Shown here piece after piece: positions 1,383 to 49,440 of a DNA stretch of 50,566 nucleotides. The position numbers and the translations under genes were made by a program. This DNA is from a virus (lineage: Duplodnaviria; Caudoviricetes). The DNA lies in IMG/VR virus record IMGVR_UViG_3300011118_000009, positions 1 to 50,566 of that record; one strand, 5' to 3'. Under the pieces are notes generated by a model. That model was given only the letters and a program-made list of their open reading frames with translations. It made no database searches and had not been told where the DNA came from. Every line of letters starts with the position of its first letter. Position 1 is the stretch's first letter.

Positions 1383-1976
1383 ATGTCACAAGGAATTTAT
1401 AAAACAGGGGAAGCAATTGATGTAACATACCAAGCTACTAAGGCTACATCAGGACTTATTGATGTTACAATGGAAATTTACGATGAAACCAGAGCTTTAG
1501 ATGGTGTAAATTTTCCAGATATTACTATGACTGAAATTGGTTCAACTGGTCGGTATTACGGCTCATTTACTCCCGATGCCGAGGGTGTTTGGAGTGTGAT
1601 GCTTGACAGTGCTACTAAGAGTGGTAAAGTCGTCAAGACCTTTTTAGTTGTAGCACATAATATTGATAGTATCGGTGACGCCATTGCTGCCCTCAATAAT
1701 CTTTCTACCACCGATGTCAATGCAGAAGTTGACACAGCACTGGCAGATTATGATGGGCCTACAAAAGCTGAATTAGATTCGGGGTTAGCTGCTCTTAATG
1801 ATATTTCCACTGCGGAGGTAAATACTCAGGTAGATACTGCTCTTGCTGATTATGATGGTCCAACTATGGCCGAATTAGCCGCATCAGAATTAGCTATTCG
1901 CGGTGCAGATAGTGATACGTTAGAAACATTATCGGATCAACTTGACGATATTGGAGGCTCCCCGATGTTGGGATAG
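1383..1976 (+). CDS. Virion protein, Ig-like N-terminus plus acidic helical tandem repeat
   Basis: EIGSTGRYYGSFTPDAEGVW beta-sandwich signature; duplicated AALNxxSTxxVNxxVDTALADYDGPTxAEL. Confidence 0.65.
   Translation: MSQGIYKTGEAIDVTYQATKATSGLIDVTMEIYDETRALDGVNFPDITMTEIGSTGRYYGSFTPDAEGVWSVMLDSATKSGKVVKTFLVVAHNIDSIGDAIAALNNLSTTDVNAEVDTALADYDGPTKAELDSGLAALNDISTAEVNTQVDTALADYDGPTMAELAASELAIRGADSDTLETLSDQLDDIGGSPMLG
1686..1878 (+). repeat. Intragenic tandem duplication, 102-bp (34 aa) period
   Basis: Two copies of the AALN...VDTALADYDGPT.AEL unit with synonymous divergence. Confidence 0.85.
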
Positions 1977-1988
1977 AAGTTTATATGT

Positions 1989-2264
1989 ATGGCTATATCT
2001 ATCACAATTCGACATCACGAAAAAGTATTCCAATTATTTTATGCCTCCGCGGGTTTCTTGGAGGGGGTAGAAGTAACAGGATATATAATCTATCCCGACA
2101 TGACAAAATCTGATGTATTACAACTTGATGAATTAGGCGACGGAATATATTCTGGATTTTTTCCGTTTATAAAAAAATCAAATAAATTGATAGAAAGATA
2201 TGGAATAGTAATGAAAGAAAACGGAGCAACAAAACTTTTCAAAATTATTAATTTAACAACTTAA
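1989..2264 (+). CDS. Hypothetical protein (Ig-like)
   Basis: 91 aa; LDELGDGIYSG resembles MTEIGSTGRYYG of the upstream gene. Confidence 0.55.
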   Translation: MAISITIRHHEKVFQLFYASAGFLEGVEVTGYIIYPDMTKSDVLQLDELGDGIYSGFFPFIKKSNKLIERYGIVMKENGATKLFKIINLTT

Positions 2265-2275
2265 AGGACCTTAAA

Positions 2276-3379
2276 ATGCCACAGGAAACAAGACCTGGAA
2301 AAAGTGAAGCCAATTGGCCAATTGTTCATAAGAACGGCACTACGGCTAAATCTACTACTCTATTAAATGGTTCCGGGGGCCGAAGTAGTCATTGGATAAC
2401 CGGCTACCAACTCGACGGAGCTCTTGCCACCGCAGACGGATTTCACCTCTTGCGGAGGGCTTGCGTTCATATTAATGGAGCCGATACATGGACTGTAACG
2501 GATGATAATATATTTGATTGGGCGTCTGATACTGATGGAACTGATGGACACTTTGCCTTGGAGATGTGGGTTTATGTTCCCTCCGCAGGTGGGGCTGTAG
2601 CTGGTCTTTTGAAGCGAGGAACAGCCACTAATGGGTGGGTTTTATCTGTTGGAACAACTGGATTAGTAACCTTTACAGTAGATGACAATACAATTGCTTC
2701 GGCTCTAACAATAACAAGTACCAATTCTATTCACGATGGATGGCATCTGATAACAGTAAGGTGTATAAGAAATTCTGCGACCGGCTTAAATCTGGCGATA
2801 GACGGAGTGGCCGATGCAGATGCGAAACCTACCACCGCTCTCGATGCTGCTGTAGCTGGTGGGGATGATATTACAATTACAGGGGAAACCGGCGATGATT
2901 TGTGGGTGGGTCCAATCGGCATGTATGAAGGTTCCTCCGCAGAGTTATCTGCTGCGACTGTATTGGCTAATTACAATAAGGGAATCGGTCGTAAATATGA
3001 CGGAAGTGAAACGGGATTGATTGCTGCATGGAATAACGATGAGGGGGTTGGAACTGCTTGTTATGATATTCTGAATAATGATTCCGCGAAAGCCGCCCTT
3101 AGTGTAGAGTTGTGGTCTCCTACCAAACAGTCTGGAGCAACTGCCGCCGTTGAGAAGTGTGGACCTCCATTCCCAAAAAAGAGTGAGGGTAATTCCGAAG
3201 ACCCGTTGCCGACTGTTGGCTTTTTCAGTACGGGAGTTGCTGCCGCTGCGGGGGTAATGCAGCCTGTTTGTGTGACTTTCCCACAAGCAATTCAGATCGG
3301 TCGTGATAATCCGGTACGAATTTTAGAAACCGATGGTGGATTTGGTTTGATTTTGTTTGGACATACAACAAACGCATAA
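2276..3379 (+). CDS. LamG/ConA-like jelly-roll virion protein
   Basis: FALEMWVY...DGWHLITV...LAIDGV and GLIAAWNNDEGVG motifs. Confidence 0.75.
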   Translation: MPQETRPGKSEANWPIVHKNGTTAKSTTLLNGSGGRSSHWITGYQLDGALATADGFHLLRRACVHINGADTWTVTDDNIFDWASDTDGTDGHFALEMWVYVPSAGGAVAGLLKRGTATNGWVLSVGTTGLVTFTVDDNTIASALTITSTNSIHDGWHLITVRCIRNSATGLNLAIDGVADADAKPTTALDAAVAGGDDITITGETGDDLWVGPIGMYEGSSAELSAATVLANYNKGIGRKYDGSETGLIAAWNNDEGVGTACYDILNNDSAKAALSVELWSPTKQSGATAAVEKCGPPFPKKSEGNSEDPLPTVGFFSTGVAAAAGVMQPVCVTFPQAIQIGRDNPVRILETDGGFGLILFGHTTNA

Positions 3380-3979: not shown

Positions 3980-4366
3980 ATGTTAAATATGGTCAGTCAT
4001 TATTCACTGGATGAACACACGATTGTCCCCACTGACCTTGCTCGATGGTGTAATCGAATGGTGGAAGGCGACCCCTTGCGAGAGGGGAAGTTTTTCACTA
4101 TTCGTTATAACAAGCTTGGGGTTTTCGTACTCGCGGAGTGGCTTGCAGAACCCCGCAGTAGATTTGTCGATGTAATGAATCTCGGTAACTCCATTGGTAT
4201 AACCAGAGAGCAGGGAAACGAACTCAAACGTAGGATTCTCGCCCCCCTCACTGCGGAGGAAACGATTCTTCAAACCACCCAAGCCGACAGTGACTATCAT
4301 CATGGGTTACAGGATGAGAACGAGGAAGAGACTGAACGGTGGGAGAGAGTAGCGAGGGGAGAATGA
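3980..4366 (+). CDS. Hypothetical protein
   Basis: 128 aa; AAAGGA RBS. Confidence 0.65.
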   Translation: MLNMVSHYSLDEHTIVPTDLARWCNRMVEGDPLREGKFFTIRYNKLGVFVLAEWLAEPRSRFVDVMNLGNSIGITREQGNELKRRILAPLTAEETILQTTQADSDYHHGLQDENEEETERWERVARGE

Positions 4367-5699: not shown

Positions 5700-7655
5700 A
5701 TGGCGGAAGTCTTTGTCAACTCCGGTGACAGCGAATCACTTGCAAGTGCTCCTGCCCCTGCATTACAGGGAAGTTTTATTCCCGGAATAGATATCCCCGA
5801 TGCCCAGGATGGCTTCGGACTTGTTACCCCCCTTGGAGGAGGCCCTACCGCAAGACGATATGGAGAATACGGCGTCTCTGCGGAGGTGTCGGCTCAAAAT
5901 ACACAACTAAATGGATTAGCTCTGGGGGGACTCGGTGGGGGCTTAACTTATGATTTAGGGGGATTTGCAGAACAAGGCCCCAGAGGATTTCCAGGACCAC
6001 AGGGACTGCCGGGGATTACTACGGTAATTGGACTCCCTGCTTATAACTCAAATTTTCTGACCGATCTTCCATATAACTTGGATTCAATTAATGATCTCGG
6101 AACAGCCGCCAACAAGCTGCTCTATACAAGTGCCTATACGGGGTATTTAACATTTACTTGGTTTAATAGTGGGCACACTATCGGGGCGGGGAGTAAAAAC
6201 TGGGATGGAGTTGCATCTGATTCTGATGGGTCTAATTTAATTATCGGAGAAACTTACATCTATATATCAGACGATAGTGGGACCACTTGGACGGAAAGAA
6301 GACCGGCTGGGGCCGCATCAAAAATTTGGAAGGCAATAGCATCAGATGACGATGGTTCCCATTTAATTGCTGGAGCAACCCCGGGCAGATTATATACATC
6401 CTCCGACGGAGGAGTTAACTGGACGGAGAGACAACCTGCGGGAGCCACTGATGTATATTGGCAGTCGGGAGCCTCAGATGGCGATGGGTCTAACTTGATA
6501 GTATGTGAGGCGGGGGCGGGGTTGGGTGGCGGTAGAATTTGGACATCTTCCGATGGGGGGATTAATTGGGTAGAGAGACGGCCTATAGATGATAATGATT
6601 ATGTTTGGAGAAAAGTAGTTTCGGATAACGATGGTTCTGTTTTAGTAGCTACCTTAAATGGTTCCGGGGATGTATATATTTCAGTCAATTCTGGGGGTAC
6701 TTGGACTGCGAGACAACCGGGCGGAAGTTCTGCAAGTTGGCATGGTTTAGCTTCTGATTCGGATGGCTCGAACCTAATAGTGGCGGGATACAATGGGAGA
6801 CTATATACCTCCTCCGATTATGGAGTTAATTGGACGGAGCAGCAACCGGCAGGGGATGCTAATAAACAATGGGCGACTGTGGCATCGGATGCTGATGGGT
6901 CTCATTTAGTAGCAGGGGGTTATAATACAAAATTATGGGTATCTGGGGACTCAGGTGCAACTTGGGTACAACAACGTCCAACTGTTTGGACAGGAATTTA
7001 TACCTGGTGGGCCGTTGATTTAGATAATGACGGGTCTAATTTAATTATAGCACAGAACAACGGACTCTTATACACGGGGATTCTTGCTACCACTTATCAA
7101 CTGGCTACGTGGGCTGAATCTGCAATTACCTCCGCAGGGAGGGCGTTACTCGATGATGCCACCGCTGCTGCCCAGGCCACTACACTCGGGTTGGGAACTA
7201 CTGATAGCCCCACACACGTAGGGTTGACCTTATCAGGCATTACTGCGGAGGGTTCAGATGTCGATAAGTTTTTGGTAGATTCTACGGGGGTTATAAAATA
7301 TAGGACAGGGGCTCAAGTATTGTCTGATATAGGGGCTCAGGTACAGAGTGACGCTCTCGATTCTATAGCAGCACTTGGAGCAATCGCTGATAATGAGTTT
7401 ATTGTTGGCACTGGTGCGGGGACTTATGCTTATGAGGACGCTGCTACTGCTGCAACATCTATGGGATTGGGGGAGTTGACAGCGTGGCTGGACGATGTTA
7501 CACTTGAAAATGGGGGAGCTATTACCACCACTCAAGTAGCTACATTTGCTCAATTAGTTTTAACACCCAGGGCTGCGGCGTTGTCTGCGGTAGAGGGTGC
7601 GATGTTTTATGACAATGATGACAATAATGTTTATGTTTGTACGGAAGGGGCTTAA
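5700..7655 (+). CDS. Tail fibre / receptor-binding protein with collagen-like segment and BNR/Asp-box beta-propeller
   Basis: GPRGFPGPQGLPG; about seven repeats of W..VASDxDGS.L plus SSDGGVNWTE; fibre-shaft motif GRALLDDATAAAQATTLGL. Confidence 0.8.
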   Translation: MAEVFVNSGDSESLASAPAPALQGSFIPGIDIPDAQDGFGLVTPLGGGPTARRYGEYGVSAEVSAQNTQLNGLALGGLGGGLTYDLGGFAEQGPRGFPGPQGLPGITTVIGLPAYNSNFLTDLPYNLDSINDLGTAANKLLYTSAYTGYLTFTWFNSGHTIGAGSKNWDGVASDSDGSNLIIGETYIYISDDSGTTWTERRPAGAASKIWKAIASDDDGSHLIAGATPGRLYTSSDGGVNWTERQPAGATDVYWQSGASDGDGSNLIVCEAGAGLGGGRIWTSSDGGINWVERRPIDDNDYVWRKVVSDNDGSVLVATLNGSGDVYISVNSGGTWTARQPGGSSASWHGLASDSDGSNLIVAGYNGRLYTSSDYGVNWTEQQPAGDANKQWATVASDADGSHLVAGGYNTKLWVSGDSGATWVQQRPTVWTGIYTWWAVDLDNDGSNLIIAQNNGLLYTGILATTYQLATWAESAITSAGRALLDDATAAAQATTLGLGTTDSPTHVGLTLSGITAEGSDVDKFLVDSTGVIKYRTGAQVLSDIGAQVQSDALDSIAALGAIADNEFIVGTGAGTYAYEDAATAATSMGLGELTAWLDDVTLENGGAITTTQVATFAQLVLTPRAAALSAVEGAMFYDNDDNNVYVCTEGA

Positions 7656-32212: not shown

Positions 32213-32260
32213 ACCTCCGCAGGTTTTTATGGATAATTACACTGCGGAGGTATTTTTTTT
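32213..32260 (+). terminator. Terminator built from an inverted pair of 9-mers
   Basis: ACCTCCGCAG...CTGCGGAGGT followed by ATTTTTTTT. Confidence 0.75.
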
Positions 32261-34925: not shown

Positions 34926-34969
34926 AGCTTACAAGGCCGTCCTGTACCTCCGCAGAGTAGGTATAGGAT

Positions 34970-35730: not shown

Positions 35731-35731
35731 A

Positions 35732-35961: not shown

Positions 35962-35980
35962 ATAATCTGCGGAGGTAGGA

Positions 35981-37633: not shown

Positions 37634-39013
37634 CTAAAGATTTATAATATCAGCGTGGACAGCCAATTGCACTCCAGCATACGCCCAATATCGCTTTTTT
37701 CCTTTTTGGTATCGAGTTCTCTTCGCTGTTTTGAAGACTCGTTTTAGCTCTCGACTAAAATTACGATCCGACAACGGGTTATATCCCTTCGCCCTACACC
37801 AGTTCCTGTATGTCGTGTATATGGTCTGGGTTGCAACCCCTCCTACGGAGTTTAGCTTAAACACATAATTCTCCGTCAGGAACACACCAGCGGGGTTAGC
37901 AGCGGCCTTAAACTCGCCCCACATCGTATTACTATGCTTAGGCGTAACAAATATCCCCTGTTTGGTTAAGTCCTGGAGCCCGCGGACCGCCCAATTAAAG
38001 ATACCAGGTAACTCGGCCTCCAACTTCCCCTTCAACTTAATATCCATATACTCGGGATTTTCCCTGTCAAAGAACGCCAACTTCAACCGTCGCCACGTCC
38101 CATTCGACTTATCCGTAAATGCAGGGAACGAATTGGCCGAAATCATTAGCTTCGCCGTTGGACTGGCCGTGAAGGGGGGCAGATACTTCCGTTCATACGT
38201 CATAAGGTCTTCCCCGGTCCACTCCTTAATCAACCCCTCCGCCTGCGGAGTAATTTCTTCCTCGGCATCCCCCGCAATATTAACCATCTTCCCATACGAA
38301 ATACTCATTGAAAATCTATCACTAAACCTCCGAATCGGAACCGCACAACAATTAGTCTCCCCCAGCATCTTCTTAATCATGTGAGCATACGTGCCCTTCC
38401 CTGTCCCCGCATCTCCTATACACAGTAAAAAACTCTGATACTCATTCGTTGGCAGTAGCAAATACCCGGCCCACTGCTGCAATAGCCTCTCCGTAGCCTT
38501 ATCGCCCCTGGTAACCTCCGCAAGAAACTGTATCCATCTTGGGCATTCAGCTTGTGGTTTATAGCCATAGGGTAGTTTGACTACGGAAAAGAAGTCCGGT
38601 GTGGCTTTTGTAAAGCTGAGTTCAGAAACTTCATCAAACAAAACAATGCCATTTTCCATCGTAATTGCTCGAATCGGAACCTGTATTGTGTCCTTGTCTG
38701 TCTCCGTAAGCCATGTATTTAATACCCGGGCTTTCATTAAGTATGTGGGAATATTAAGGTTATGTTTTACCAATTTAACTAAATCGGGGGTTGAAAGCAT
38801 TCCGATACTACTAATAAATCCCGATAATTCAGCATCTATATCCGATGCAACGCTATAAACCCCATTATCCCATACGTAAAACTCATCCCGCCAGGAAACC
38901 AATTTCTGCTTCCCCCCAAGATCATCGTTGGTCTTAATCGTTCCAAAACACTGCAAATAACTATCTGCAATCTCTTTCGGCGATTTAGCTTTCTTCTTCT
39001 CTTCCTTACTCAC
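37634..39013 (-). CDS. D5/P4-type SF3 helicase (D5_N + ATPase + winged helix), no primase domain
   Basis: ECPRWIQFL, GDAGTGKGT, KLMISANSFP, DKSNGTWRR, YRNWCRAKG. Confidence 0.92.
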   Translation of the reverse strand: MSKEEKKKAKSPKEIADSYLQCFGTIKTNDDLGGKQKLVSWRDEFYVWDNGVYSVASDIDAELSGFISSIGMLSTPDLVKLVKHNLNIPTYLMKARVLNTWLTETDKDTIQVPIRAITMENGIVLFDEVSELSFTKATPDFFSVVKLPYGYKPQAECPRWIQFLAEVTRGDKATERLLQQWAGYLLLPTNEYQSFLLCIGDAGTGKGTYAHMIKKMLGETNCCAVPIRRFSDRFSMSISYGKMVNIAGDAEEEITPQAEGLIKEWTGEDLMTYERKYLPPFTASPTAKLMISANSFPAFTDKSNGTWRRLKLAFFDRENPEYMDIKLKGKLEAELPGIFNWAVRGLQDLTKQGIFVTPKHSNTMWGEFKAAANPAGVFLTENYVFKLNSVGGVATQTIYTTYRNWCRAKGYNPLSDRNFSRELKRVFKTAKRTRYQKGKKRYWAYAGVQLAVHADIINL

Positions 39014-39191
39014 TATTCTATCCTTTCAATAAAGAGAGGGGGAGCCGAAGAGAACAGGGCAGTAAACTGGCTCCCCCCCTCTATAAACCCATAAAAAGAG
39101 AGGCCGCCAAGGGCATTCCCAAGGCGACCTTACTCTGCGGAGGTCTGAAAATATAATGTCGTTTTGTTTGCCCTGTACCTTCATTACCTCT

Positions 39192-39918: not shown

Positions 39919-39919
39919 A

Positions 39920-40324: not shown

Positions 40325-40622
40325 AATAACTCTGCGGAGGAAGATGATGGGTACTCGAAAAGTAATTGTAGTCGAGGTATTTAGTCATAATTCTACAAGA
40401 GTAGTAGTGACTGCCAGATATCAATCGACCCATGAATATATATTTATGCTTGTTCCCAATAAACCCGTCGTAACATTTGGGGACCAGCTTAAAGTAGAAG
40501 TTGACTCCAATGGTGAATGTAGTCGTATTACCTTATATCGAAATGAGAAATTAACTTATAATCTCCACCCCGAGAACATTCCCACAGAAGTTCTCCGTCA
40601 ATTAATTGAGGACAGACTTTAA
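40314..40622 (+). CDS. Hypothetical protein
   Basis: 102 aa; start may be the ATG at 40344 after the 9-mer GGAGG. Confidence 0.55.
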   Translation: MNNKITLRRKMMGTRKVIVVEVFSHNSTRVVVTARYQSTHEYIFMLVPNKPVVTFGDQLKVEVDSNGECSRITLYRNEKLTYNLHPENIPTEVLRQLIEDRL

Positions 40623-40645
40623 CCTCCGCAGAGGAAGGAATTAAA

Positions 40646-41549: not shown

Positions 41550-41972
41550 TTGGATTTTAATCTACCAAAAACTTTTAATTTTGGCTCGGGCGAGTTGGCT
41601 GAGATCGATCATCTCTGTCAGACCTTTGGAATTTCCAGGAGAACTGCATTTCTTTACCTTAAAGCCCTACGGATAAATCCTATTTATTCCGGGGATGAAT
41701 CTTTTTTTTCTTTGCCAACTTTCAATAGATTGATGTATATCCTAACTAAGCCCGGAAGCCCCGGATTTATTTTCCCCGGCTCCACTGCAAAGAACAACAA
41801 ACATATCCGTGATTCGGGATGTCTCACAGAAGTTACAGATGAAATTATTGACGAAGCCATGAGACCTGAAACCCTCGCAGAAATGGCGGCCTCCGCAGGG
41901 AAAGACCCTTCGCTACTCCGCAAGTTCGCATCATATAGAGGAACCCCAAAGAAAGGAAAAAAGAAAAAATGA
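41550..41972 (+). CDS. Putative HTH DNA-binding protein
   Basis: IDHLCQTFGISRRTAFLYL. Confidence 0.55.
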   Translation: MDFNLPKTFNFGSGELAEIDHLCQTFGISRRTAFLYLKALRINPIYSGDESFFSLPTFNRLMYILTKPGSPGFIFPGSTAKNNKHIRDSGCLTEVTDEIIDEAMRPETLAEMAASAGKDPSLLRKFASYRGTPKKGKKKK

Positions 41973-42151: not shown

Positions 42152-42765
42152 ACCCACTCAGTAAAGAAATGTCCCCGGATGAAATAACCAATGTCCTTTT
42201 GTCTTTCAATGATCCGTCGTTGATTGCCAATGTGTTCAAGCACATGGGTTGGTCCCCTACCTTGGAGATTACGGAAACTCTTAAGATGGCAAAGCAAGAT
42301 AATAACCTGAATGTTAAGCTCCGGGCCATCAAACATCTTCGGGAACTAATGAAAGAAGCTGGGGAAGCTTCGGGGCTCATAGCGAATATGTCACAATCAC
42401 GTCCTCTTCCCGGGGGAGGTAGTCAAACTTTTCATGCCAAGCGAATTATGGCGGCAATGAACCCAACAAAAAAAATAGAATCCACTCAAATAGGAGAAGC
42501 AGAAAATGTCGAAGAAAAAGCAGAACCCAATCGAACAAGCAATAGGCCCGAGAGCCAAGGAATCGACTCCGCAGAGGGAAACGACAATCCACTCGGGGGA
42601 TGTGCCGACGCCGAAGGAGATGGTGGACCTGGAGACTCTCAACCAGAAGACGGCGGAACGCCTTGCACAACCGAATCCGCCGACACCCCCTGCATCAAAT
42701 CCAGAAAACCAGACTGTGACCAATCACTCTTCCCCGGAATCTCCGAGTCCTCCGCAGGGAATTGA
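42148..42765 (+). CDS. Hypothetical protein, terminase small subunit candidate
   Basis: ATGA-coupled; helical core (KLRAIKHL) with disordered acidic tail; upstream of TerL. Confidence 0.45.
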   Translation: MNPLSKEMSPDEITNVLLSFNDPSLIANVFKHMGWSPTLEITETLKMAKQDNNLNVKLRAIKHLRELMKEAGEASGLIANMSQSRPLPGGGSQTFHAKRIMAAMNPTKKIESTQIGEAENVEEKAEPNRTSNRPESQGIDSAEGNDNPLGGCADAEGDGGPGDSQPEDGGTPCTTESADTPCIKSRKPDCDQSLFPGISESSAGN

Positions 42766-43246
42766 ACCCGATATTTTGAAACCAAGTAAAACACTTTTGG
42801 ATAGTGCAAGAGAATTTAATCCACCTGCGGAGGAAAACAAAGGGGCTGTAATGTATCATACGGATGAAAATGGTAATGATACACGGGTTCCAGTAATTAA
42901 CCCTGCGGAGGAAATAGGATTGTCTATGCTCAAAGAGCACATCATGTCGAATGGGTTCAATGAGGCTGTGGTGTCGATGTACTTGAATCTTATTTGTGCT
43001 TCGCCGAATATGGTCCCGTCTACTACGACTTGGAATATGCCGAAGAGAGAGCGACTTCCGGCGATGGTTTATAAGACTCTTATTGCTCCGGGATTCTTGG
43101 ATACTATTTATCCGGCTCTGAAAATTGTTATGGGGTCGAATATTGGCAATACGGATTGGACGGCTTCGACTTCCATTACGTTTGCATTCTTCGGTGTGAT
43201 CTGGACCTTGCCATATATTCTTGAAATGGAAAAGAATGGAGGATAA
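42506..43246 (+). CDS. Hypothetical protein, Pro-rich N-terminus and hydrophobic C-terminus
   Basis: 246 aa; AGGAG upstream; overlaps the previous ORF by 260 nt. Confidence 0.55.
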   Translation: MSKKKQNPIEQAIGPRAKESTPQRETTIHSGDVPTPKEMVDLETLNQKTAERLAQPNPPTPPASNPENQTVTNHSSPESPSPPQGIEPDILKPSKTLLDSAREFNPPAEENKGAVMYHTDENGNDTRVPVINPAEEIGLSMLKEHIMSNGFNEAVVSMYLNLICASPNMVPSTTTWNMPKRERLPAMVYKTLIAPGFLDTIYPALKIVMGSNIGNTDWTASTSITFAFFGVIWTLPYILEMEKNGG

Positions 43247-43884: not shown

Positions 43885-45725
43885 TTATTGAGCGACCATA
43901 TCCCCTGTATCCACTATGTCAGGATTATGAATCCTTAACTGCGGAGGGTCAATGTCAGGCGAGGCTTGCGGTGTTATGTGACCAGTCTACGCCGAAGAAG
44001 TTGGTACTGGCTTGGGACTTTTTTCGTAGAATTTATCTTGGGGGTGAGGACGCGGCTTTTTATAAAAATGGATTTGAGGAGAGCCCGGAGTTTCATCACG
44101 ACATGGTACATTCGCTGGGGCAGTATGCTCGTAATGCGTGGGCGGCTCCACGAGGATATGCAAAGTCCACTGTGCTTGTTTCGGAGATTCCATTACTTCT
44201 TGCTTTGACGAGACCGAATTATGATCTTACAACCAGTTTCTCGACTGATAAAATGGTTGAGGATCGGTTTGATATATTGATGCAACAGTTGACCCAGAAT
44301 AAAATGATCTTGCAGGATTTTGGGGAAATGCGACCGAAGCGTGGACGTGCGATTTGGAACCATCATCATTTACATTTGAATAATGGGGCGATTATTCGTG
44401 GGATGAGTGTGATGGGGAAAAAGAGAGGGGGGCGTCCGAGGTTGTTTATTTTGGATGACCCCGAATATGATCCTGATTCTCCGTCTCAAGCCGCCGCTCA
44501 AATACTTATTGAGAAATTTGAAGGTATTTTGTTCAAGCAAGTTATTCCTATGCTTGAGAAAGGGTCCTCGATTTTTTGGATCGGGACGTTGATAAGTAGG
44601 CGTTCTTTTTTGCATCATGCTACACAGGGGGACGACAAGCGGTTTGATAATTGGAACCGAAAAGTTTTGCGGGGGATTGCCACGGAGAGCGACGGCACGG
44701 TTCATTTATTGTGGCCGGAGAAGTGGCCGAAGGATTTTCTGGATGCTCGAAAGAAAGAGATAGGGCCATCTGCTTTTGCAAGTGAATACTGTAATGATCC
44801 CATTAGTGACCAGGAGAAGATATTTGTTGTAGACCCGCGTAAAAATGAATATTCTGTTGATGATGAATTTGATTGGAATAACCCCTTAAATCATACGGGG
44901 CTTATTCACTGGAATGAGCGAATAGATAAGCCAGGACAACACAGGACGTATAAGGAGTTTGAAAAACCATTCAAGGACCATGTTGCCCCTATGTTTAGGA
45001 TTCTCCTGTTTGATTACGCTTCTGGAATGGGGCAATACAATGATTTTTCCTGTATTGTTGTTCTCGGATACGATACCTACAATACAATGTGGATACTGGA
45101 TGTATGGGAAGGCAGGGCTAAGGATGCCACTCTTGAGAGGATGATTTATGAGAAGGGCGTGGCGTGGCGTCCCCGGGTTTTGGGTATAGAGGCAACCAGT
45201 ATTCAAATTGCCTTTGCGGAGGCCGTACAGGAATATATTGATGAAGCCGCTATTCAAACCCCTAATCCCTGGAGAATTAAAGTCTTTCCAATTACATATC
45301 CCGCCCGAGTTTCTAAAGCCCAACGGATAGCGGGACTTGAATGGAGATTTGCCCCGGGTCGGATTAAGTACCCAGCCCATCTTGCCCATGTATGGCCATA
45401 TACCGACTTGTATTCTCAGACCACTGATTTTACCCCCGACCTCGCATTGCTTCCCCATGATGATGTCATTGATACGGTTTCGATGTCTCAGTTTGTGGTT
45501 AAATCTCGTGGGGGGCAGTATCGACCGGAGACCCCGAGATCGAATCTCTTAAAGCGAATCATGGAAAATAAACCGGGAGCACAAGGGCAACCTATTTTGT
45601 CGGGGGTTCCCACGGCACAAATTACGGATGAGATGATTAATGTTATGAGTCAAAACGCACGAAACCGGAAAGTCAATCCCCGAGACCGGAAACTCCGCAG
45701 GGGGAAAAAAAACATAATAGGTTAG
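43881..45725 (+). CDS. terL: Terminase large subunit
   Basis: APRGYAKST Walker A, RGGRP, FILDDPE Walker B, WIGT, nuclease FDYA...DFS and HDDVID. Confidence 0.93.
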   Translation: MIIERPYPLYPLCQDYESLTAEGQCQARLAVLCDQSTPKKLVLAWDFFRRIYLGGEDAAFYKNGFEESPEFHHDMVHSLGQYARNAWAAPRGYAKSTVLVSEIPLLLALTRPNYDLTTSFSTDKMVEDRFDILMQQLTQNKMILQDFGEMRPKRGRAIWNHHHLHLNNGAIIRGMSVMGKKRGGRPRLFILDDPEYDPDSPSQAAAQILIEKFEGILFKQVIPMLEKGSSIFWIGTLISRRSFLHHATQGDDKRFDNWNRKVLRGIATESDGTVHLLWPEKWPKDFLDARKKEIGPSAFASEYCNDPISDQEKIFVVDPRKNEYSVDDEFDWNNPLNHTGLIHWNERIDKPGQHRTYKEFEKPFKDHVAPMFRILLFDYASGMGQYNDFSCIVVLGYDTYNTMWILDVWEGRAKDATLERMIYEKGVAWRPRVLGIEATSIQIAFAEAVQEYIDEAAIQTPNPWRIKVFPITYPARVSKAQRIAGLEWRFAPGRIKYPAHLAHVWPYTDLYSQTTDFTPDLALLPHDDVIDTVSMSQFVVKSRGGQYRPETPRSNLLKRIMENKPGAQGQPILSGVPTAQITDEMINVMSQNARNRKVNPRDRKLRRGKKNIIG

Positions 45726-45925: not shown

Positions 45926-46044
45926 AACTGTTTGCTGTTATTATGGTTCCCTTTCTCTTGTATGAAGTGTTTCTTTGTATAAAGCGAATACAACAAAAAA
46001 TGAAAGGAAAATAATGAATGTTGACGCTGCGGAGGAATAGGGGG

Positions 46045-46099: not shown

Positions 46100-46405
46100 A
46101 TGAATCTGACATCCCTGTGGCTTATCGTTTTAATTGGTTTATTGGTACTGTTTCTTTACAGCCTGGTAATAGCGTTCGGCACGGTAAAAAGGATGGCCGA
46201 TCGATTGATGGAGACCAATAAGCAGTTGATGGTAATGATTTCACACCGGGATGGGGGATCGGATGCCGCCCGAGCACTATTAGCTGCTTCAAAACCTCCG
46301 CAGAGGGATTTGCAGGGGATTTCGGGGAAAAAGGCAAAACAGAAGCCTTTGAATTCCAAGGAAGAAAAGAATGCTCAATTTTCTATTGATGTTAAGGTTC
46401 CATAA
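46100..46405 (+). CDS. Single-TM membrane protein
   Basis: Hydrophobic N-terminus; precedes the portal gene. Confidence 0.65.
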   Translation: MNLTSLWLIVLIGLLVLFLYSLVIAFGTVKRMADRLMETNKQLMVMISHRDGGSDAARALLAASKPPQRDLQGISGKKAKQKPLNSKEEKNAQFSIDVKVP

Positions 46406-46407
46406 TT

Positions 46408-48441
46408 ATGTCATATAAGTTTTCCTTGCCGGAAGATACACCGGGGAATAAGAAACAGACGGAAAATATTTTCAGCTATCTTGTCGCTGCGGGAAAATCA
46501 AGACGGAACCCCGTTGCGGTTAATTGGTTAATTAATCATTACTATATGCGGGGACTGCGGAATTTTACAGCCCTTGATTATGGGAAGGGGTCTCTGAATG
46601 TTTCTTATATGGATGAATCGGGGGTCCTGAAATTCAAGTATGAGGAGATTTTATCGAAGTATCAGGCCCAGCTTGGCCGGTTACTTTCGATTAATCTTGC
46701 CCCGGCTGTCTCGCGGAAAGGGGTCAGTCTCGATGGCCTGAGAAAAGCAAGTACGGCACAGGTAGTTTTGGAGTCAGCATTTCCACAGGATAAAGTCGCC
46801 CAACTTGGACTTAACTTATTCCCCCCTCTTTTGCAATATGGAACAGTTGGGTTGGGATTGTGGGTAGAGGGGGAAGATAGTATCGGTATTGATACCATTA
46901 TGCCCTGGGAGTTGATTCCAATTCCAGTGGATATTTCCTCCCCTGCGGAGGTTAGAGGTTTAATTAGGACTCGATTTGTACCTATGGATTGGGTGAAGAA
47001 TTTATCTATAACACCGGGACGGGGCTCAAAAGCATACAAGGGCATAGATGATTTCAAGGTTCCAGTTGGGGATTTGCCCGCCGATGTTACATCTAAATTT
47101 CATGGGTCGGCATCAATGACCTATACAAACAGTGGATTCTTTATTCGGGATTCCAATAGTCAGGTCGAAACACAATGGCCTGGGCGGGGGACCAAGAAAG
47201 ATAAAACTCACATGGATGTAACCCAATTGACGGAGGTGTGGTTGGAAACACCAGATGGGTATTTGGGAGAGTATTTAGTATTTATAGGAACGGATAAGTT
47301 TACCCAGCTTTATCGACAAGATCATAGCCTCAGTAAATATCACATGCCGGTAAGAATTGTACGAGATGTTACGGTGGGTGGATTTTGGGGTCGGTCTTTT
47401 GTAGACCAGTTGATTCCTTTGAATACTGAGACGGAATATGCTTTGAGTAGTGTCTTTCAATCCGTGGCTGATTTTGACCTGTATGGTCTTATGATGTGGC
47501 CCACTACAATGGGAACCCCACCGGAAGCTCAACGGGGTCGGGATGGTATTAAGTATATTCGATATGAACAGGATTACACGGCGAGTAATGATAAGCCATT
47601 TAATATTCAACCTTCTAAGATGCAAAAACCACAGATTGACGCCGTTATGATGGCCGTTAATCTCGCGGATAAAATAGCCAATCAGCCCGGGGAAATGATG
47701 AGGGGGGAGGCTCCGGGGCGAGTTGATTCGGCATCCGGGTTAGGGTTATTGTATGAGACCTCTGGTGTGCCTTTATCTCCTACGGCCAAGAATACGGCCA
47801 CTGCCATAGCTGGAATCTATAGGGCGATGTTGGGAGTTTGTGGAGACCTTTGGCGGTCTGGTAAAGTTATTGATATGACATGCCTTGATGATTCACTGGC
47901 TGGAATTATTCTTGACACTGAAACCGGTCAGATTAGTCTTGGTGAAAATTCGATCCCATCGCCGGATGAGGTCATTGTTAACGTGGCGTCGGAAGTACCG
48001 GTTTCAAAAGAACAACAGAAAATGGAACTCAAAGAGGCCCTCAAAGACGGGGTAATTACTCTCGATGAATATAGTTTTAAGGTTAGGAAACAGGGGCTTG
48101 ATCTCCCCGTTGGAAACGAACAGGCGTGGCAAAATCACCGCCGAGCAATGCTTGAAAATATTATTTTGTTTGGGGACGGAGAAACCCCCGGTAAAGTAAT
48201 TGTCAGTGCCCGTGACATGCACATGATTCACAAACAGGTTCTTGACGAATTTATGGCTCGTCCAGAATTTTATGCAGCCAAGGTTGTTGTTCAAGATAAG
48301 TTTGTTGAACACTATGAGGAACATCTTGTCGGTCTTGGGGCCATGCCTGATGAGATGGAACAACCCGATGAAGCAGCGGAGTTGGAATTAATGGCTCCTC
48401 CGCAGGGTCCCGGTCCAATAGAACCAGGGGCAGAATTTTAA
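46408..48441 (+). CDS. Portal protein
   Basis: 677 aa after TerL; FWGRSFVDQLIPLN and G..P.RVDSASGL patterns of podovirus-type portals. Confidence 0.8.
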   Translation: MSYKFSLPEDTPGNKKQTENIFSYLVAAGKSRRNPVAVNWLINHYYMRGLRNFTALDYGKGSLNVSYMDESGVLKFKYEEILSKYQAQLGRLLSINLAPAVSRKGVSLDGLRKASTAQVVLESAFPQDKVAQLGLNLFPPLLQYGTVGLGLWVEGEDSIGIDTIMPWELIPIPVDISSPAEVRGLIRTRFVPMDWVKNLSITPGRGSKAYKGIDDFKVPVGDLPADVTSKFHGSASMTYTNSGFFIRDSNSQVETQWPGRGTKKDKTHMDVTQLTEVWLETPDGYLGEYLVFIGTDKFTQLYRQDHSLSKYHMPVRIVRDVTVGGFWGRSFVDQLIPLNTETEYALSSVFQSVADFDLYGLMMWPTTMGTPPEAQRGRDGIKYIRYEQDYTASNDKPFNIQPSKMQKPQIDAVMMAVNLADKIANQPGEMMRGEAPGRVDSASGLGLLYETSGVPLSPTAKNTATAIAGIYRAMLGVCGDLWRSGKVIDMTCLDDSLAGIILDTETGQISLGENSIPSPDEVIVNVASEVPVSKEQQKMELKEALKDGVITLDEYSFKVRKQGLDLPVGNEQAWQNHRRAMLENIILFGDGETPGKVIVSARDMHMIHKQVLDEFMARPEFYAAKVVVQDKFVEHYEEHLVGLGAMPDEMEQPDEAAELELMAPPQGPGPIEPGAEF

Positions 48442-48462
48442 TTCAAATTGAAAGGATAGAAA

Positions 48463-49440
48463 ATGGACAAATTATTCAAACTATTTGGTTTTCACACGCC
48501 TTTATGTATGATATTTGACGGAGATGATGGTGCGGGAAATGCTAACGATTCCAACGCAAGTGGGGGATCGGATAATTCCTCCGCAGGTGGCGGTGGGGGT
48601 GATAACAATGGAGCTAATAAGGACGATAATTCATCCTCGAAAAAGGAAGGAACCCATACAATTAAAGTAGATGGGGAAGACCGGCAGGTATCACTGGAGG
48701 AGCTTAAAACACTGGCATCCAAGGCTGGGGGGGCGGATGCTCGCTTCCAGGAAGCCGCCGATATCAAGAAAGCAGCAGAGAATGGGACCAGAATCGGGGC
48801 ATTGATCGAGAGTCTTTCCGGCGACGGAGACCCCAAAGAGTCTGATGTCCGGGAATTGTCATCCCTGATTGGGGTGAATCCTGATGAGTTTCTTCAATTT
48901 CTTAACGAGGATGAAAAAAAACCAGCAAAAGCCGCAGACGGTAAAATATCCACAGAGGCTCTAACAGAGGCATTAGGTGTTTCCCCTGCGGAGGTTAAGG
49001 CTATTTTGGAGCATTCTAATAAGAGGCATGTTGCGGATGCTCAAAAAGAATTACGAGAAATATCGGATATAGCGGTTGACAAAGATGAGATAATTGGTAA
49101 AATGATAGTAGGTGAGAACAAAGATGAGGTTCTTACCGCTGTTAAGGATATGGTAGCTGAGGATGTTCTTAGGAAGATTCAAGATGGAATGCCGTATGGG
49201 GCCGAGATGGTTGCTGCAAGCGTACAGAGGGTGCGGTCGCAATTGACTAAGCTTGGTATCCCGAATAAGCCGGGCCAGCAACCCATAGTTTTGGGCCTGG
49301 GACCAGGACAAGGAATTCCGTTAGATGTCCAAGCCGACGAACCAATTAAGCGAATTTCTTCGACTCAGGATGGTGGTGAGGAGAATATTGTTAAGCGATA
49401 TCTCCAAGCGGCTGTTAAAGTTGCGAGACGTGGGAAATAG
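48463..49440 (+). CDS. Capsid scaffolding protein
   Basis: IKVDGEDRQVSLEEL motif; acidic and helical; between portal and capsid genes. Confidence 0.75.
   Translation: MDKLFKLFGFHTPLCMIFDGDDGAGNANDSNASGGSDNSSAGGGGGDNNGANKDDNSSSKKEGTHTIKVDGEDRQVSLEELKTLASKAGGADARFQEAADIKKAAENGTRIGALIESLSGDGDPKESDVRELSSLIGVNPDEFLQFLNEDEKKPAKAADGKISTEALTEALGVSPAEVKAILEHSNKRHVADAQKELREISDIAVDKDEIIGKMIVGENKDEVLTAVKDMVAEDVLRKIQDGMPYGAEMVAASVQRVRSQLTKLGIPNKPGQQPIVLGLGPGQGIPLDVQADEPIKRISSTQDGGEENIVKRYLQAAVKVARRGK

What the first reader, a model, noticed from the sequence alone, without database searches (positions are those of the whole stretch)
1810..48994. Genome-wide 9-mer CCTCCGCAG, about one per 0.9 kb: an unexplained DNA-level signal
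Seen: at least 57 exact copies (25 on +, 32 on -) against fewer than 0.4 expected for a 9-mer over both strands, plus many one-mismatch variants (e.g. 2450, 9801, 14570, 17839, 26292, 28391, 39240). Inside genes it is read in all six frames (xAE, LRR, CGG, PPQ, xSA, LRR/LRS), so the constraint is on DNA, not protein. The base 3' of CCTCCGCAG is A 24, G 20, T 12, C 1, giving CCTCCGCAGD. No strand polarity is evident. Known: density and behaviour resemble Neisseria DUS, Pasteurellaceae USS and cyanobacterial HIP1, but the sequence matches none of them nor E. coli Chi. Inference: a sequence-specific factor marks the whole phage chromosome. Candidates are a priming signal (1.5-2 kb per strand is Okazaki-sized), a Chi-like signal for the Cas4-like nuclease/Sak4 or host AddAB, a self-mark for packaging, ejection or uptake, or a site for a genome-coating protein.
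Basis: partly seen in the sequence, partly recalled or inferred. Interest (0 to 1): 0.93.

Follow-up and report, generated by a model that had tools for sequence, protein, structure and literature searches.

The report
Private DNA word grid in phage
An uncultured sediment phage writes the ten-letter DNA signal CCTCCGCAG-D about once per kilobase into both strands of its genome, its relatives keep the same word or their own one-letter variants, and the regular strand-by-strand layout suggests a still unidentified phage machine that starts or cuts DNA strands at these marks.

Summary
The window holds 57 exact copies of CCTCCGCAG (25+/32-) against 0.2 expected, and 46 coding copies against 1.8 in synonymous-codon shuffles. 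The word is not private to this contig. All 21 related loci with a polymerase at least 50% identical carry it at 0.5-1.5 per kb. More distant relatives carry their own words (CCTCTGCAG, gCCTCAGCAG, gCCCCTGCAG, GTGGTCCCAG, GCAGAGACAGG, YCGGGAGAG), and these follow the polymerase tree.

Sites turn over between relatives, yet they are about 10 times better conserved than ordinary 9-mers. Accessory genes lack the word. About 70% of synonymous opportunities are filled.

New structure found here:
- The base after the word is a purine and almost never C.
- Each strand carries an evenly spaced grid.
- Strands alternate.
- Close pairs always face inward.

Best reading (about 0.4): a phage-encoded, strand-specific start signal for priming or nicking, used by a polymerase/recombination module with no recognisable primase. 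Chi-like, address-label and host-derived readings remain possible.

The scan has noted similar private phage words on other, unrelated DNA before.

The parts
1810..48994 (.). Whole array: 57 exact copies of CCTCCGCAG (25 on +, 32 on -), on average one per 0.89 kb; per strand one per 2.0 kb (+) and 1.6 kb (-).
1810..1818 (-). word copy
2580..2588 (+). word copy
2934..2942 (+). word copy
4251..4259 (-). word copy
5878..5886 (-). word copy
7129..7137 (+). word copy
7243..7251 (-). word copy; followed by the longest gap (4.07 kb), over accessory fibre-like genes
11313..11321 (+). word copy
12119..12127 (+). word copy
12615..12623 (-). word copy
13257..13265 (-). word copy
15056..15064 (+). word copy
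15499..15507 (-). word copy
16143..16151 (-). word copy
17177..17185 (+). word copy
18457..18465 (-). word copy
19950..19958 (+). word copy in the spacer of a sigma-70-like promoter (TTGACT-tt-word-aagtgg-TATAAT) ahead of the polymerase operon
20646..20654 (+). word copy in PolA; position shared with the closest relative G003
21591..21599 (-). word copy in PolA; position shared with G003
22776..22784 (-). word copy in PolA; position shared with G003
24211..24219 (+). word copy
24439..24447 (-). word copy
24636..24644 (+). word copy
25100..25108 (-). word copy
25968..25976 (+). word copy
26246..26254 (-). word copy
26483..26491 (-). word copy
26905..26913 (+). word copy
27060..27068 (-). word copy
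28454..28462 (+). word copy
28736..28744 (+). word copy
29096..29104 (-). word copy
30468..30476 (-). word copy
31732..31740 (-). word copy, intergenic
31932..31940 (+). word copy in the spacer of a second sigma-70-like promoter (TTGACA-ta-word-atagtg-TATAGT), at the same offset as at 19950
32214..32250 (.). Inward-facing pair (word, 19 nt, reverse complement) followed by a T-run: a terminator-like hairpin built from two copies (32214-32222 on +, 32242-32250 on -).
34947..34955 (+). word copy, intergenic
35967..35975 (-). word copy, intergenic
36850..36858 (+). word copy, intergenic
36986..36994 (-). word copy, intergenic; direct pair with 37015
37015..37023 (-). word copy, intergenic
37174..37182 (-). 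word copy
39135..39143 (-). word copy
40332..40340 (-). word copy
40623..40631 (+). word copy, intergenic, just upstream of the C5 methylase start
41890..41898 (+). word copy
42749..42757 (+). word copy
42825..42833 (-). word copy
42903..42911 (-). word copy
43939..43947 (-). word copy
46027..46035 (-). word copy (the only one followed by C)
46295..46303 (+). word copy
46943..46951 (-). word copy
48397..48405 (+). word copy
48578..48586 (+). word copy
48986..48994 (-). word copy
20373..22982 (+). Family A DNA polymerase with an N-terminal UDG-superfamily domain. Pfam finds no 5'-3' exonuclease domain. It is a family-wide core gene and so a candidate user of the signal.
23793..24455 (+). ERCC4-type nuclease, a family-wide core gene
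24892..25188 (+). 98-aa Cro/C1-type HTH protein in the core module.
25249..26265 (+). Exonuclease, Cas4/RecB-like by its Cys and D..D/ExK layout (read by eye). Family-wide core gene.
27035..27952 (+). AAA_24 (Sak4-like) ATPase, core gene
28009..28593 (+). Single-strand DNA-binding protein, core gene
37634..39013 (-). D5-type SF3 helicase without a primase domain. It is an accessory gene with 0 word copies, and same-word relatives have an AAA_25 helicase instead.

Best explanation
Shown: CCTCCGCAG followed by a non-C base, usually a purine, is a DNA-level signal. Selection keeps it at about one per kb on both strands of this phage and of a whole clade of relatives. Sister clades keep one-letter variants, and remote clades keep other words. 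Each strand carries its own roughly regular grid, the strands alternate, and close pairs face inward.

Inferred: The word is a strand-specific start mark for DNA synthesis. The complementary strand, 5'-H-CTGCGGAGG-3', is recognised as template. A new strand then begins at the adjacent 5' template base, so its first base is the purine that follows the word. The start could be made either by a primase-like activity or by a nick that the family A polymerase extends.

Such a grid on both strands would let forks moving in either direction, or inward-facing start pairs, replicate the genome with the conserved module. That module has a polymerase, SSB, an ERCC4 nuclease, an exonuclease and a Sak4-like ATPase, but no recognisable primase. 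The word and its reader co-evolve, which gives the dialects.
For: Real, and under selection on the DNA:
- 57 copies against 0.2 expected; 46 coding copies against 1.8 in codon shuffles.
- 46 of 75 synonymously possible places are filled.
- The encoded tripeptides are over-used: PPQ 6 against 1.1, LRR 12 against 3.1.
- Words are conserved 12/14, 14/19, 12/34, 13/34, 5/14 and 2/20 between genome pairs, where ordinary 9-mers are conserved 10.8, 8.2, 3.6, 3.2, 2.4 and 0.9%.

Belongs to the lineage:
- All 21 loci with PolA at least 50% identical hold 3 or more copies (0.47-1.52 per kb). Of the 23 loci below 50%, 21 hold none and 2 hold one.
- The dialects follow the PolA tree. The CCTCCGCAG clade has 14 rows with support 99; its sister clade has CCTCTGCAG and gCCTCAGCAG.
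- The same word occurs in genomes of 39-55% G+C.
- Core genes hold 1.30 per kb and accessory genes 0.36 per kb, P = 3e-4.

Directional start-site anatomy:
- The base at +1 is a purine in 44/57 copies here, 30/30 in G013, 33/36 in a CCTCAGCAG phage, and 11/11 and 13/13 in remote dialects. C is nearly absent at +1 to +3.
- Protein contexts that would force C at +1 are filled 1/15, against 89/125 for the others, P = 1.6e-6.
- Per-strand spacing is more even than random in 21 of 22 genomes or loci. Strand switches are at or above expectation in 20 of 22. Divergent gaps exceed convergent gaps in 19 of 22.
- Close inverted pairs: 12 convergent, 0 divergent.

Precedent: the NrS-1 primase-polymerase recognises an 8-nt template word and starts at the first base 5' of it (PMC8718748, passages). 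Proteobacterial DnaG starts on template CTG, the complement of the CAG that ends dialects A-E (PMC2978363, passages).

No primase domain was found in any gene tested in the window or in the large relatives-only genes.
Against: - No reader or primase was identified, and not every ORF was scanned.
- Nine to ten specified bases is far more than known replicative primases need.
- Helicases differ among same-word phages, so any helicase-coupled primase would have to work with different partners.
- The inward-facing phase of the two grids is not predicted by simple Okazaki priming.
- Words also sit in promoter spacers, co-oriented with transcription (7 clear cases in 4 genomes). That would suit a double-strand DNA binder.
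- The 22 geometry tests are not fully independent, because relatives share some sites.
- A 6.9-kb siphovirus-like fragment with no detectable homology to the family also carries the word (6 copies). That could mean a shared host factor.
- Only contigs, not raw reads, were available, so neither nicks nor starts could be seen.
Confidence: 0.4

Rival explanations
1. Chi-like signal. The word tames a DNA-end-processing helicase or nuclease: the phage's own exonuclease/Sak4 module, or the host's RecBCD/AddAB. Phage DNA broken anywhere would then be spared and channelled into recombination-dependent replication, while word-less DNA is degraded.
For: - It is an asymmetric 9-mer of Chi-like size, read directionally.
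- An even per-strand grid would limit degradation from either direction.
- The family-wide core is a recombination module: exonuclease, Sak4-like ATPase, SSB and ERCC4 nuclease, plus a Rad50/SbcC-like ATPase in G012 and G015.
- Accessory DNA lacks the word.
- Chi differs between bacterial lineages, and phages can accumulate it to one per 1.86 kb (PMC12315714, passages).
Against: - Host-Chi-rich phages have Chi almost only on one strand (20 of 23; 32 of 32), clustered at one end, and typically lack a recombination module. Here the strands are 25/32, there is no clustering, and a recombination module is present.
- The purine at +1 and the exclusion of C have no role in known Chi recognition.
- No phage-encoded Chi reader of this kind turned up in my literature searches.
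- The same word occurs across phages of 39-55% G+C, which is awkward for a host enzyme.
Confidence: 0.2
2. Address label on double-stranded DNA. A phage protein binds the word along the whole chromosome to coat, compact, partition, package or eject it, or to shut off promoters late in infection. Dialects would then give kin-specific recognition.
For: - The density and the dialects resemble uptake sequences and their dialects (my recall, plus the search listing for PMC7371117).
- The word sits at a fixed offset in the spacer of a conserved promoter class (window 19950 and 31932; three clear cases in G012; one in G015; one in 24265_61). A bound protein there would block RNA polymerase.
- Candidate proteins exist: a large virion-type 'polyvalent-like' protein (16782-19928) is family-wide, and there are several small HTH proteins.
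Against: - Mass-action binding predicts neither per-strand regular spacing nor strand alternation, and not the 12:0 inward-facing bias of close pairs.
- It does not predict a purine at +1 either.
- The one HTH protein tested has a hypervariable recognition region among same-word phages.
- The genome of relative G012 has direct terminal repeats, so packaging starts at fixed ends.
Confidence: 0.15
3. Structural nick sites. A phage nickase leaves single-strand interruptions at the word in packaged DNA, as in T5, phiKMV-like phages, tf and Rembedalsseter, without these nicks serving as replication starts.
For: - Those nick motifs are also family-conserved 9-mers found inside and outside genes: TACT/RTGMC with 14 sites (PMC3517423, passages), and WACTRTGAC with 13 sites, enriched in 61 phages (PMC11780129, passages).
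- A fixed word followed by a constrained neighbouring base suits a cut at a fixed offset.
- Nucleases are present: an ERCC4-type nuclease in all genomes and an HNH/EndoVII-type enzyme in some.
Against: - Known nick motifs lie on one strand only and are about four times rarer.
- Nicks on both strands as little as 14-50 bp apart, at the inward-facing pairs, would tend to break the genome.
- The HNH gene is absent from G013 and G015.
- Nicks could not be examined, because only contigs were available.
Confidence: 0.1
4. Host-derived word. The phages mirror a word of their hosts (an uptake sequence, a host Chi, a host repeat or a host factor's site), and the dialects reflect different hosts.
For: - A 6.9-kb fragment with a lambda-like head-tail module and no detectable homology to the family carries 6 copies, while its 70%-identical sister contig has 2 in 20 kb. 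That would fit two phage types sharing a host.
- Three cyanobacterial genomes hold the word about 10 times more often than its reversed control, partly as hairpin pairs.
Against: - No dense genome was found. The five genomes hold 21-57 copies in 3.4-9.2 Mb. In 151 Planctomycetota genomes the maximum is 339 in 6.6 Mb, equal to that genome's control of 347.
- Accessory genes, including a captured restriction-modification remnant, hold 0.36 per kb against 1.30 in core genes.
- The identical word occurs in phages of 39-55% G+C.
- The words track the phage polymerase tree in single-letter steps.
- In the viral scan, every dense contig except that one fragment type belongs to this family.
Confidence: 0.1
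5. No function: a mutational or repair bias, or an artefact.
For: None found. Considered because biased repair has been proposed for HIP1-type words (my recall).
Against: - The enrichment is 260-fold.
- Words are under purifying selection.
- They show geometric order.
- Three independent studies yield the same sequence.
- The methylases are not conserved among same-word relatives.
Confidence: 0.01

Closest known systems
Template recognition sites of phage and bacterial primases: the NrS-1 primase-polymerase 8-nt site 5'-TTTGGTTA-3', T7 gp4 GTC-type sites, and DnaG on d(CTG)
   Same: An asymmetric word on the template strand, with synthesis beginning at the adjacent 5' template base and a purine-start product. 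It is needed on both strands at Okazaki-like intervals. The complement of dialects A-E begins with CTG.
   Different: Nine to ten specified bases, with near-saturating selection for them genome-wide. No primase was recognisable in the genes tested. The papers I read in passages did not describe a genome-wide grid.
Nick-associated words of phages tf / Rembedalsseter (TACT/RTGMC, WACTRTGAC), phiKMV-like phages and T5
   Same: A 9-mer private to a phage family, conserved across members with little nucleotide similarity, lying inside and outside genes, and of unknown function.
   Different: Those motifs lie on one strand only, number 13-14 per roughly 45 kb, and are concentrated in one part of the genome. 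Here both strands are used equally, there are 57 copies per 50 kb, and each strand has a regular grid. Nicks were not tested here.
DNA uptake sequences (Neisseriaceae DUS, Pasteurellaceae USS) and their dialects
   Same: About one per kb on both strands. The word is written into genes at the cost of codon and residue choice. Sites turn over while density is maintained. Lineage dialects differ by single letters. Inverted pairs occur at terminators (the DUS/USS properties are from my recall and the listing).
   Different: Uptake sequences belong to chromosomes of competent bacteria and are read by the uptake machinery. Here the word belongs to a phage lineage, no dense bacterium was found, and there is strand alternation with an inward-facing pair bias.
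Chi sites, including Chi-rich lambdoid phages (LLS, MD8)
   Same: An asymmetric 8-9-mer that accumulates by selection, up to about one per 1.9 kb in phages, and is linked to recombination-dependent growth.
   Different: Chi-rich phages show strong single-strand bias, end clustering and no recombination module of their own, and the word is the host's Chi. None of these holds here.

Membership tests
Primase recognition site | Asymmetric template word with initiation at the neighbouring 5' template base, normally giving a purine-start product | tested here: met
   The base at +1 after the word is a purine in 44/57 copies (window), 30/30 (G013), 33/36 (a CCTCAGCAG phage), and 11/11 and 13/13 in remote dialects. 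Contexts forcing C at +1 are filled 1/15 against 89/125. This is sequence pattern only, not biochemistry.
Primase recognition site | A cognate primase is encoded, or the host primase is shown to use the site | tested here: not met
   No TOPRIM, AEP or PrimPol domain was found in the 50 window ORF products scanned with Pfam and/or PHROGs, or in the 10 large relatives-only ORFs. The D5-type protein lacks a primase domain. The small ORFs of the window were not all scanned.
Primase recognition site | Sites on both strands at intervals compatible with discontinuous synthesis | tested here: met
   One per 2.0 kb (+) and 1.6 kb (-) in the window. The per-strand CV is below the random expectation in 21 of 22 genomes or loci.
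Primase recognition site | Primers or nascent strands start at the site | not testable with these tools
   Only assembled contigs of public runs were available.
Nick-associated phage words (T5, phiKMV, tf, Rembedalsseter) | Family-conserved short word in a phage lineage | tested here: met
Nick-associated phage words (T5, phiKMV, tf, Rembedalsseter) | All sites on one strand | tested here: not met
   25+/32- in the window, and close to 1:1 in the relatives. For tf and Rembedalsseter, all 14 and all 13 sites lie on one strand.
Nick-associated phage words (T5, phiKMV, tf, Rembedalsseter) | Physical single-strand interruptions in virion DNA at the word | not testable with these tools
   No raw or long reads were available.
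Chi (host RecBCD/AddAB), Chi-rich phages | Strong orientation bias relative to the DNA end entered | tested here: not met
   25/32, with no positional switch; the cumulative strand count stays between -8 and +1. Chi-rich phages show 20/23 and 32/0.
Chi (host RecBCD/AddAB), Chi-rich phages | The phage lacks its own recombination module | tested here: not met
   An exonuclease, an AAA_24/Sak4-like ATPase, an SSB and an ERCC4 nuclease are core genes.
Chi (host RecBCD/AddAB), Chi-rich phages | The word is the host's Chi and is enriched in the host chromosome | tested here: inconclusive
   The host is unknown.
DNA uptake sequences (DUS/USS) | Hyper-abundant word on both strands with lineage dialects | tested here: met
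DNA uptake sequences (DUS/USS) | Resides in the chromosome of a competent bacterium and is read by its uptake machinery | tested here: inconclusive
   The carrier is a virus record. No dense bacterial genome was found in the samples. Accessory genes are poor in the word. The host was not identified.
HIP1-type iterated words linked to methyltransferases | Palindromic word with a conserved cognate methyltransferase | tested here: not met
   The word is not a palindrome. The C5 methylase has no match in any of the five relatives and the N6/N4 methylase only a 59-68-residue local match in three; both carry 0 word copies. Conservation of the MT-A70 methylase in the five close relatives was not tested; among 13 dialect contigs it matched only 9168_14.

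The most novel reading that the evidence does not exclude
The words are a genome-encoded grid of strand start sites for a replication system that needs no conventional primase. A still unknown phage reader opens or primes DNA at inward-facing word pairs on both strands, and the strand-displacing family A polymerase with SSB copies outward from them. This would be a natural counterpart of multiply primed or nick-driven strand-displacement amplification. The resulting branches would be resolved by the conserved ERCC4 nuclease and the exonuclease/Sak4 module. Because word and reader co-evolve in single-letter steps, each sublineage would own a private replication barcode that also excludes co-infecting relatives.
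Probability: 0.2. Interest if true: 0.9.

Novelty: new variant of a known kind. Interest (0 to 1): 0.8.

Why it matters
If these words are read by a phage-encoded machine, they reveal an unrecognised way in which a virus programmes a basic DNA transaction across its whole chromosome, strongly enough to shape codon and even residue choice. The transaction could be strand initiation, end processing or self-recognition.

The dialect series gives a ready-made specificity-swap experiment: CCTCCGCAG, CCTCTGCAG, CCTCAGCAG and CCCCTGCAG in phages with the same core genes. It also gives a route to a new sequence-specific enzyme (primase, nickase or binder) with a 9-10-base site.

Practically, such private words are strong markers for assigning metagenomic fragments to a phage lineage. 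One example here is a contig binned in a bacterial MAG.

The scan's earlier notes report similar words in several unrelated phages, so the phenomenon may be general and undescribed. My five literature searches found no description of it.

Tried and rejected
Readers tested and not supported:
- C5 methylase 40646-41503, N6/N4 methylase 33787-34611 and D5 helicase 37634-39013: neither the C5 methylase nor the D5 helicase has any match in the five relatives; the N6/N4 methylase has only a 59-68-residue local match in three of them. Each carries 0 copies of the word.
- Helicase in general: G012 and G015 have an AAA_25 helicase instead.
- HNH/EndoVII-type gene 34999-35730: found in G012 and G002 only.
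- Protein 41550-41972: not found in G013.
- 98-aa HTH protein 24892-25188: present throughout the clade, but its recognition-helix region is hypervariable with indels among same-word phages.

Searches that gave nothing useful:
- Profile searches of the 338-aa and 220-aa core proteins against solved structures: no significant match. PHROGs later named them an exonuclease and an ERCC4 nuclease.
- Cultured relatives: the best tblastn identity in the phage collection was below 30%, so no host could be inferred.
- tRNA genes: none.
- TerL as a single-protein query found no relatives.
- Literature search with the bare word returned 503 papers, and the 25 listed were primer-type noise.

Spacing of all copies taken together looked random (CV 0.88, P = 0.22). 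The order appeared only when the strands were separated.

The second, siphovirus-like carrier (L178, L170, L074) could not be extended. The viral and metagenome scans returned only the same 6.9-kb contig, a 70% sister and a 36% relative. Whether it shares a reader gene therefore stays open.

Public runs: all 9 holders are kept as contigs, so no molecule ends, strands or nicks could be read. None of the 22 listed natural variants in 20 kb falls in a word, but only about 0.2 would be expected to by chance, so this says nothing.

Coverage of the relatives: of the 80 loci from the polymerase-profile scan, I analysed 44. The rest, at about 21-25% identity, were left out. I did not open any supplementary files of papers; those of PMC12315714 and PMC11780129 may hold per-phage motif tables relevant to the comparison.

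Full report
THE OBSERVATION. The window is a whole IMG/VR virus record of 50,566 bases, classed as linear and about 93% complete. CCTCCGCAG occurs 57 times, 25 on + and 32 on -, between 1810 and 48994. The 100 dinucleotide-preserving shuffles give a mean of 0.21 and at most 1. An order-2 Markov model expects 0.22. Every other strongly enriched 7- to 12-mer overlaps this word, and no longer word adds information.

The flanks are not conserved, so this is not a dispersed repeat element. The base after the word is A24/G20/T12/C1. Mismatches are tolerated mainly at positions 1, 3 and 9, and never at positions 4, 5 and 7.

Contigs assembled from runs of two other studies reproduce the window with 0 differences over long pieces. 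One example is 32832-40000, which spans seven copies. The word is therefore not an assembly or adapter artefact.

DNA, NOT PROTEIN. I used a crude set of 71 ORFs covering 93% of the window. In it, 46 copies are coding and 11 are intergenic, although only 6.8% of the DNA is non-coding. All six frames occur, but unevenly: 22 copies read xCT-GCG-GAG-Gxx and 10 read xCC-TCC-GCA-Gxx.

Shuffling synonymous codons within genes gives a mean of 1.8 and a maximum of 6 coding copies in 300 trials, against 46 observed. Of the 75 places where the proteome could hold the word without changing a residue, 46 do. That includes 22 of 28 [APST]-A-E-[ADEGV] sites and 5 of 6 PPQ sites. The tripeptides the word encodes are themselves over-used: PPQ 6 against 1.1, LRR 12 against 3.1.

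The exclusion of C after the word is real and not a codon by-product. Across six genomes, contexts that would force C at +1 are filled 1 time in 15, and the others 89 times in 125 (P = 1.6e-6).

A LINEAGE WORD WITH DIALECTS. Relatives found through the polymerase all carry the word. G001 has 6 in 6.3 kb, G002 31 in 30.9 kb, G003 21 in 15.4 kb, G004 6 in 13.8 kb and G005 5 in 5.2 kb, with 0 copies of the reversed control everywhere. Further members have 35, 40, 30, 15 and 36 copies in 42.6, 53.3, 52.0, 24.5 and 56.7 kb. One of them is a complete genome with direct terminal repeats. All share core genes with the window at 36-75% protein identity.

Profile scans with the polymerase and a 677-aa head protein gave a graded series of relatives, of which I analysed 44 of the 80 polymerase loci and 25 of the 29 head-protein loci. 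All 21 loci with a polymerase at least 50% identical hold 3 or more copies (0.47-1.52 per kb). Of the 23 below 50%, 21 hold none and 2 hold one.

The more distant phages have their own hyper-abundant words:
- CCTCTGCAG: 14 in 43.7 kb.
- gCCTCAGCAG: 36 in 42.9 kb and 22 in 26.1 kb.
- gCCCCTGCAG: 10 in 21.9 kb.
- GTGGTCCCAG: 8-11 per contig.
- GCAGAGACAGG: 13 in 15.5 kb.
- (C/T)CGGGAGAG: 9-10 per contig.

Inside the CCTCCGCAG clade, the basal member requires a G before the word (27 of 30 copies), and one member has shifted to CTCCGCAGG.

On a quick maximum-likelihood tree of 28 polymerases, the words map onto well-supported clades and change by single letters between sisters (the careful search did not finish).

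SELECTION AND TURNOVER. Aligned orthologous genes show that positions turn over. The window shares 11 of 13 sites with its closest relative, but only 11 of 38, 13 of 36, 5 of 16 and 3 of 25 with more distant ones. Even so, words are about ten times better conserved than ordinary 9-mers at every distance: 12/14 against 10.8%, 14/19 against 8.2%, 12/34 against 3.6%, and 2/20 against 0.9%.

Core genes hold 1.30 words per kb and genes without orthologues hold 0.36 per kb (5 in 14 kb, P = 3e-4). The three largest accessory DNA-metabolism genes (two methylases and the D5 helicase) hold none. DNA thus arrives without the word and acquires it with residence time.

PHAGE OR HOST? No locus other than one short MAG contig was dense.

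Whole-genome counts in five of those genomes were 21-57 copies in 3.4-9.2 Mb. The three cyanobacteria were about 10 times above the reversed control, but still only one per 120-170 kb. In 151 Planctomycetota genomes the maximum was 339 in 6.6 Mb, equal to that genome's control of 347. I chose that phylum because the dense MAG contig was binned there. This is a small sample, and the host remains unknown.

Indirect evidence favours a phage-encoded reader:
- The word-poor accessory genes.
- The same word in phages of 39-55% G+C.
- Strict tracking of the phage tree.

Against this, one 6.9-kb element, seen as three contigs, has a lambda-like head-tail module and no detectable homology to the family, yet it carries 6 copies. 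Its sister contig, with a 70%-identical capsid protein, has 2 in 20 kb.

HIDDEN ORDER. Taken together, the copies look randomly spaced. Taken strand by strand, they do not. I tested 22 genomes or loci, including other dialects, against random placement:
- The mean per-strand spacing CV is below expectation in 21 (Fisher combined P about 1e-19).
- Strand switches are at or above expectation in 20 (P about 1e-10).
- Gaps between copies facing away from each other exceed gaps between copies facing each other in 19 (P about 4e-5).

These tests are not fully independent, because relatives share some sites. In the five largest genomes, the median inward-facing gap is 350-770 bp and the median outward-facing gap is 980-1930 bp. 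All 12 inverted pairs closer than 60 nt face inward and none faces outward. An RNA hairpin would form in either order, so this asymmetry points to a process on DNA. One such pair in the window (32214-32250) is followed by a T-run and looks like a terminator.

The CCTCCGCAG clade also has a promoter class with the word 1-2 nt after the -35 box, co-oriented with transcription. There are two in the window (19950, 31932), three clear ones in G012, one in G015 and one in another relative. Across dialects the strands are balanced, and the base after the word is a purine.

THE GENES AROUND IT. The core that persists even in phages with other words comprises:
- A family A polymerase with an N-terminal UDG-superfamily domain and no 5'-3' exonuclease domain found by Pfam.
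- An ERCC4-type nuclease.
- A small Cro/C1-type HTH protein.
- An exonuclease whose cysteine and acidic motifs look Cas4/RecB-like by eye.
- An AAA_24 (Sak4-like) ATPase.
- An SSB.
- A 1048-aa protein that resembles virion 'polyvalent' proteins (a lead only).

No primase domain was found in any gene scanned. The helicase is swapped among same-word phages: a D5 type here, an AAA_25 type in G012 and G015. The methylases (MT-A70, N6/N4, C5), the truncated EcoO109I-like nuclease and the HNH enzyme are patchy. The recognition-helix region of the HTH protein is hypervariable among phages that share the identical word.

HOW IT MOST LIKELY WORKS. Three things argue for a strand-specific, directional DNA transaction rather than mass-action binding:
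- A fixed asymmetric word followed by a purine.
- A regular grid on each strand.
- A strict pair orientation.

The closest documented geometry is a primase recognition site. The NrS-1 primase-polymerase recognises the 8-nt template word 5'-TTTGGTTA-3' and begins at the first base 5' of it (PMC8718748, passages). Proteobacterial DnaG begins on template CTG with pppAG primers (PMC2978363, passages), and the complement of dialects A-E begins with CTG.

I therefore favour, at about 0.4, a start-site grid for DNA synthesis, by primer synthesis or by a nick that the polymerase extends. It would serve forks in either direction in a phage with no recognisable primase. This is inference; nothing here shows a start or a cut.

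A Chi-like role for the phage's own end-processing module is the main rival (0.2). The host-Chi version fits poorly. According to the passages I read in PMC12315714, Chi-rich phages have Chi on essentially one strand, clustered near one end, and lack a recombination module. All three are the opposite of what is seen here.

Nick-associated words of tf and Rembedalsseter are family-conserved 9-mers like this one, but they lie on one strand only and are about four times rarer (PMC3517423 and PMC11780129, passages). An address label for a double-strand binder would explain the promoter placement, but not the geometry.

NOVELTY. My searches were: the word itself, over-represented motifs and uptake sequences in phage genomes, phage nicks, evenly spaced primase sites and Chi-like phage words. 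They found no description of this word, or of a both-strand, per-strand-regular, dialect-bearing word in a phage family. The searches cover only the held library.

Earlier notes of this scan report similar private words in eight other phage genomes. They gave me the leads to test strand alternation, inward-facing pairs, nick motifs and the NrS-1 precedent. They are unchecked notes and not independent support.

I class the finding as a new variant of a known kind (functional over-represented DNA words), with an unknown reader.

Noticed in passing
L178:1-6854 (also L170, L074): A 6.9-kb element with a lambda-like head-tail module (gpE-type capsid at 5e-86, HK97 gp10-like, tail terminator, chaperone) shows no detectable homology to the family. 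It carries 6 copies of the same word. One copy of the element is binned in a Sedimentisphaerales MAG. Its sister contig L307 (capsid protein 70% identical) has only 2 copies in 20 kb.
   Followed up: partly
G006 (Calothrix anomala genome reached through L054 and L112), many contigs: At least ten hairpin-type pairs, CCTCCGCAG-N16-18-CTGCGGAGG, are scattered over this cyanobacterial genome. The word is about 10 times above its reversed control in three cyanobacteria. This looks like a small repeat family that happens to share the word.
   Followed up: no
L001, L002, L241 (relatives): Another strongly enriched word family, CGATGCCGC/GATGCCGCC or CGACGCCGC, occurs 24-29 times in 5-14 kb. It is probably a tandem or periodic repeat inside a gene and is unrelated to the main word.
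   Followed up: no
L230 (contig 20233_109): CACTACGAC occurs 9 times, all on one strand, with flanks conserved for at least 5 bases on each side. This is a longer direct repeat and not the same phenomenon.
   Followed up: no
window 37634-39013 versus L192:12873-13931 and L198:16224-17324: Non-orthologous helicase replacement within one phage clade: a D5-type SF3 helicase here, and an AAA_25 (RepA/DnaB-like) helicase in G012 and G015. Those two genomes also have a Rad50/SbcC-like AAA_23 ATPase inside the recombination module.
   Followed up: partly
window 33787-34925: An intact N6/N4 DNA methylase is followed by a 100-aa ORF that matches only the first 78 of 198 positions of the EcoO109I restriction-enzyme family. 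The stretch contains 0 copies of the word.
   Followed up: partly
window 22915-23866: An MT-A70-family methylase ORF overlaps the 3' end of the polymerase gene and is followed by a DUF4326 protein. That makes three DNA methylases of different classes in one 50-kb phage.
   Followed up: no
window 29343-30075: Contigs from other samples skip 388 bases (29343-29732) or 309 bases (29763-30073), and one carries a cluster of 16 substitutions at 30006-30075. This is a natural indel and recombination hotspot in the accessory 29174-30090 region.
   Followed up: no
window 24892-25188 and orthologues: The small Cro/C1-type HTH protein of the core module has a conserved N-terminal SYER motif and a conserved C-terminal L-N-x-I-A-x-x-F-S...Y-I-I-F-R-P-R tail. 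Its helix-turn-helix centre is hypervariable and has insertions of up to about 20 residues.
   Followed up: partly
L243 and L219 (contig 32046_37): In the CCTCTGCAG phage the palindrome TCTGCAGA is the top 8-mer (26 counts against 3.2 expected). Its word may therefore be read partly as a palindrome.
   Followed up: no
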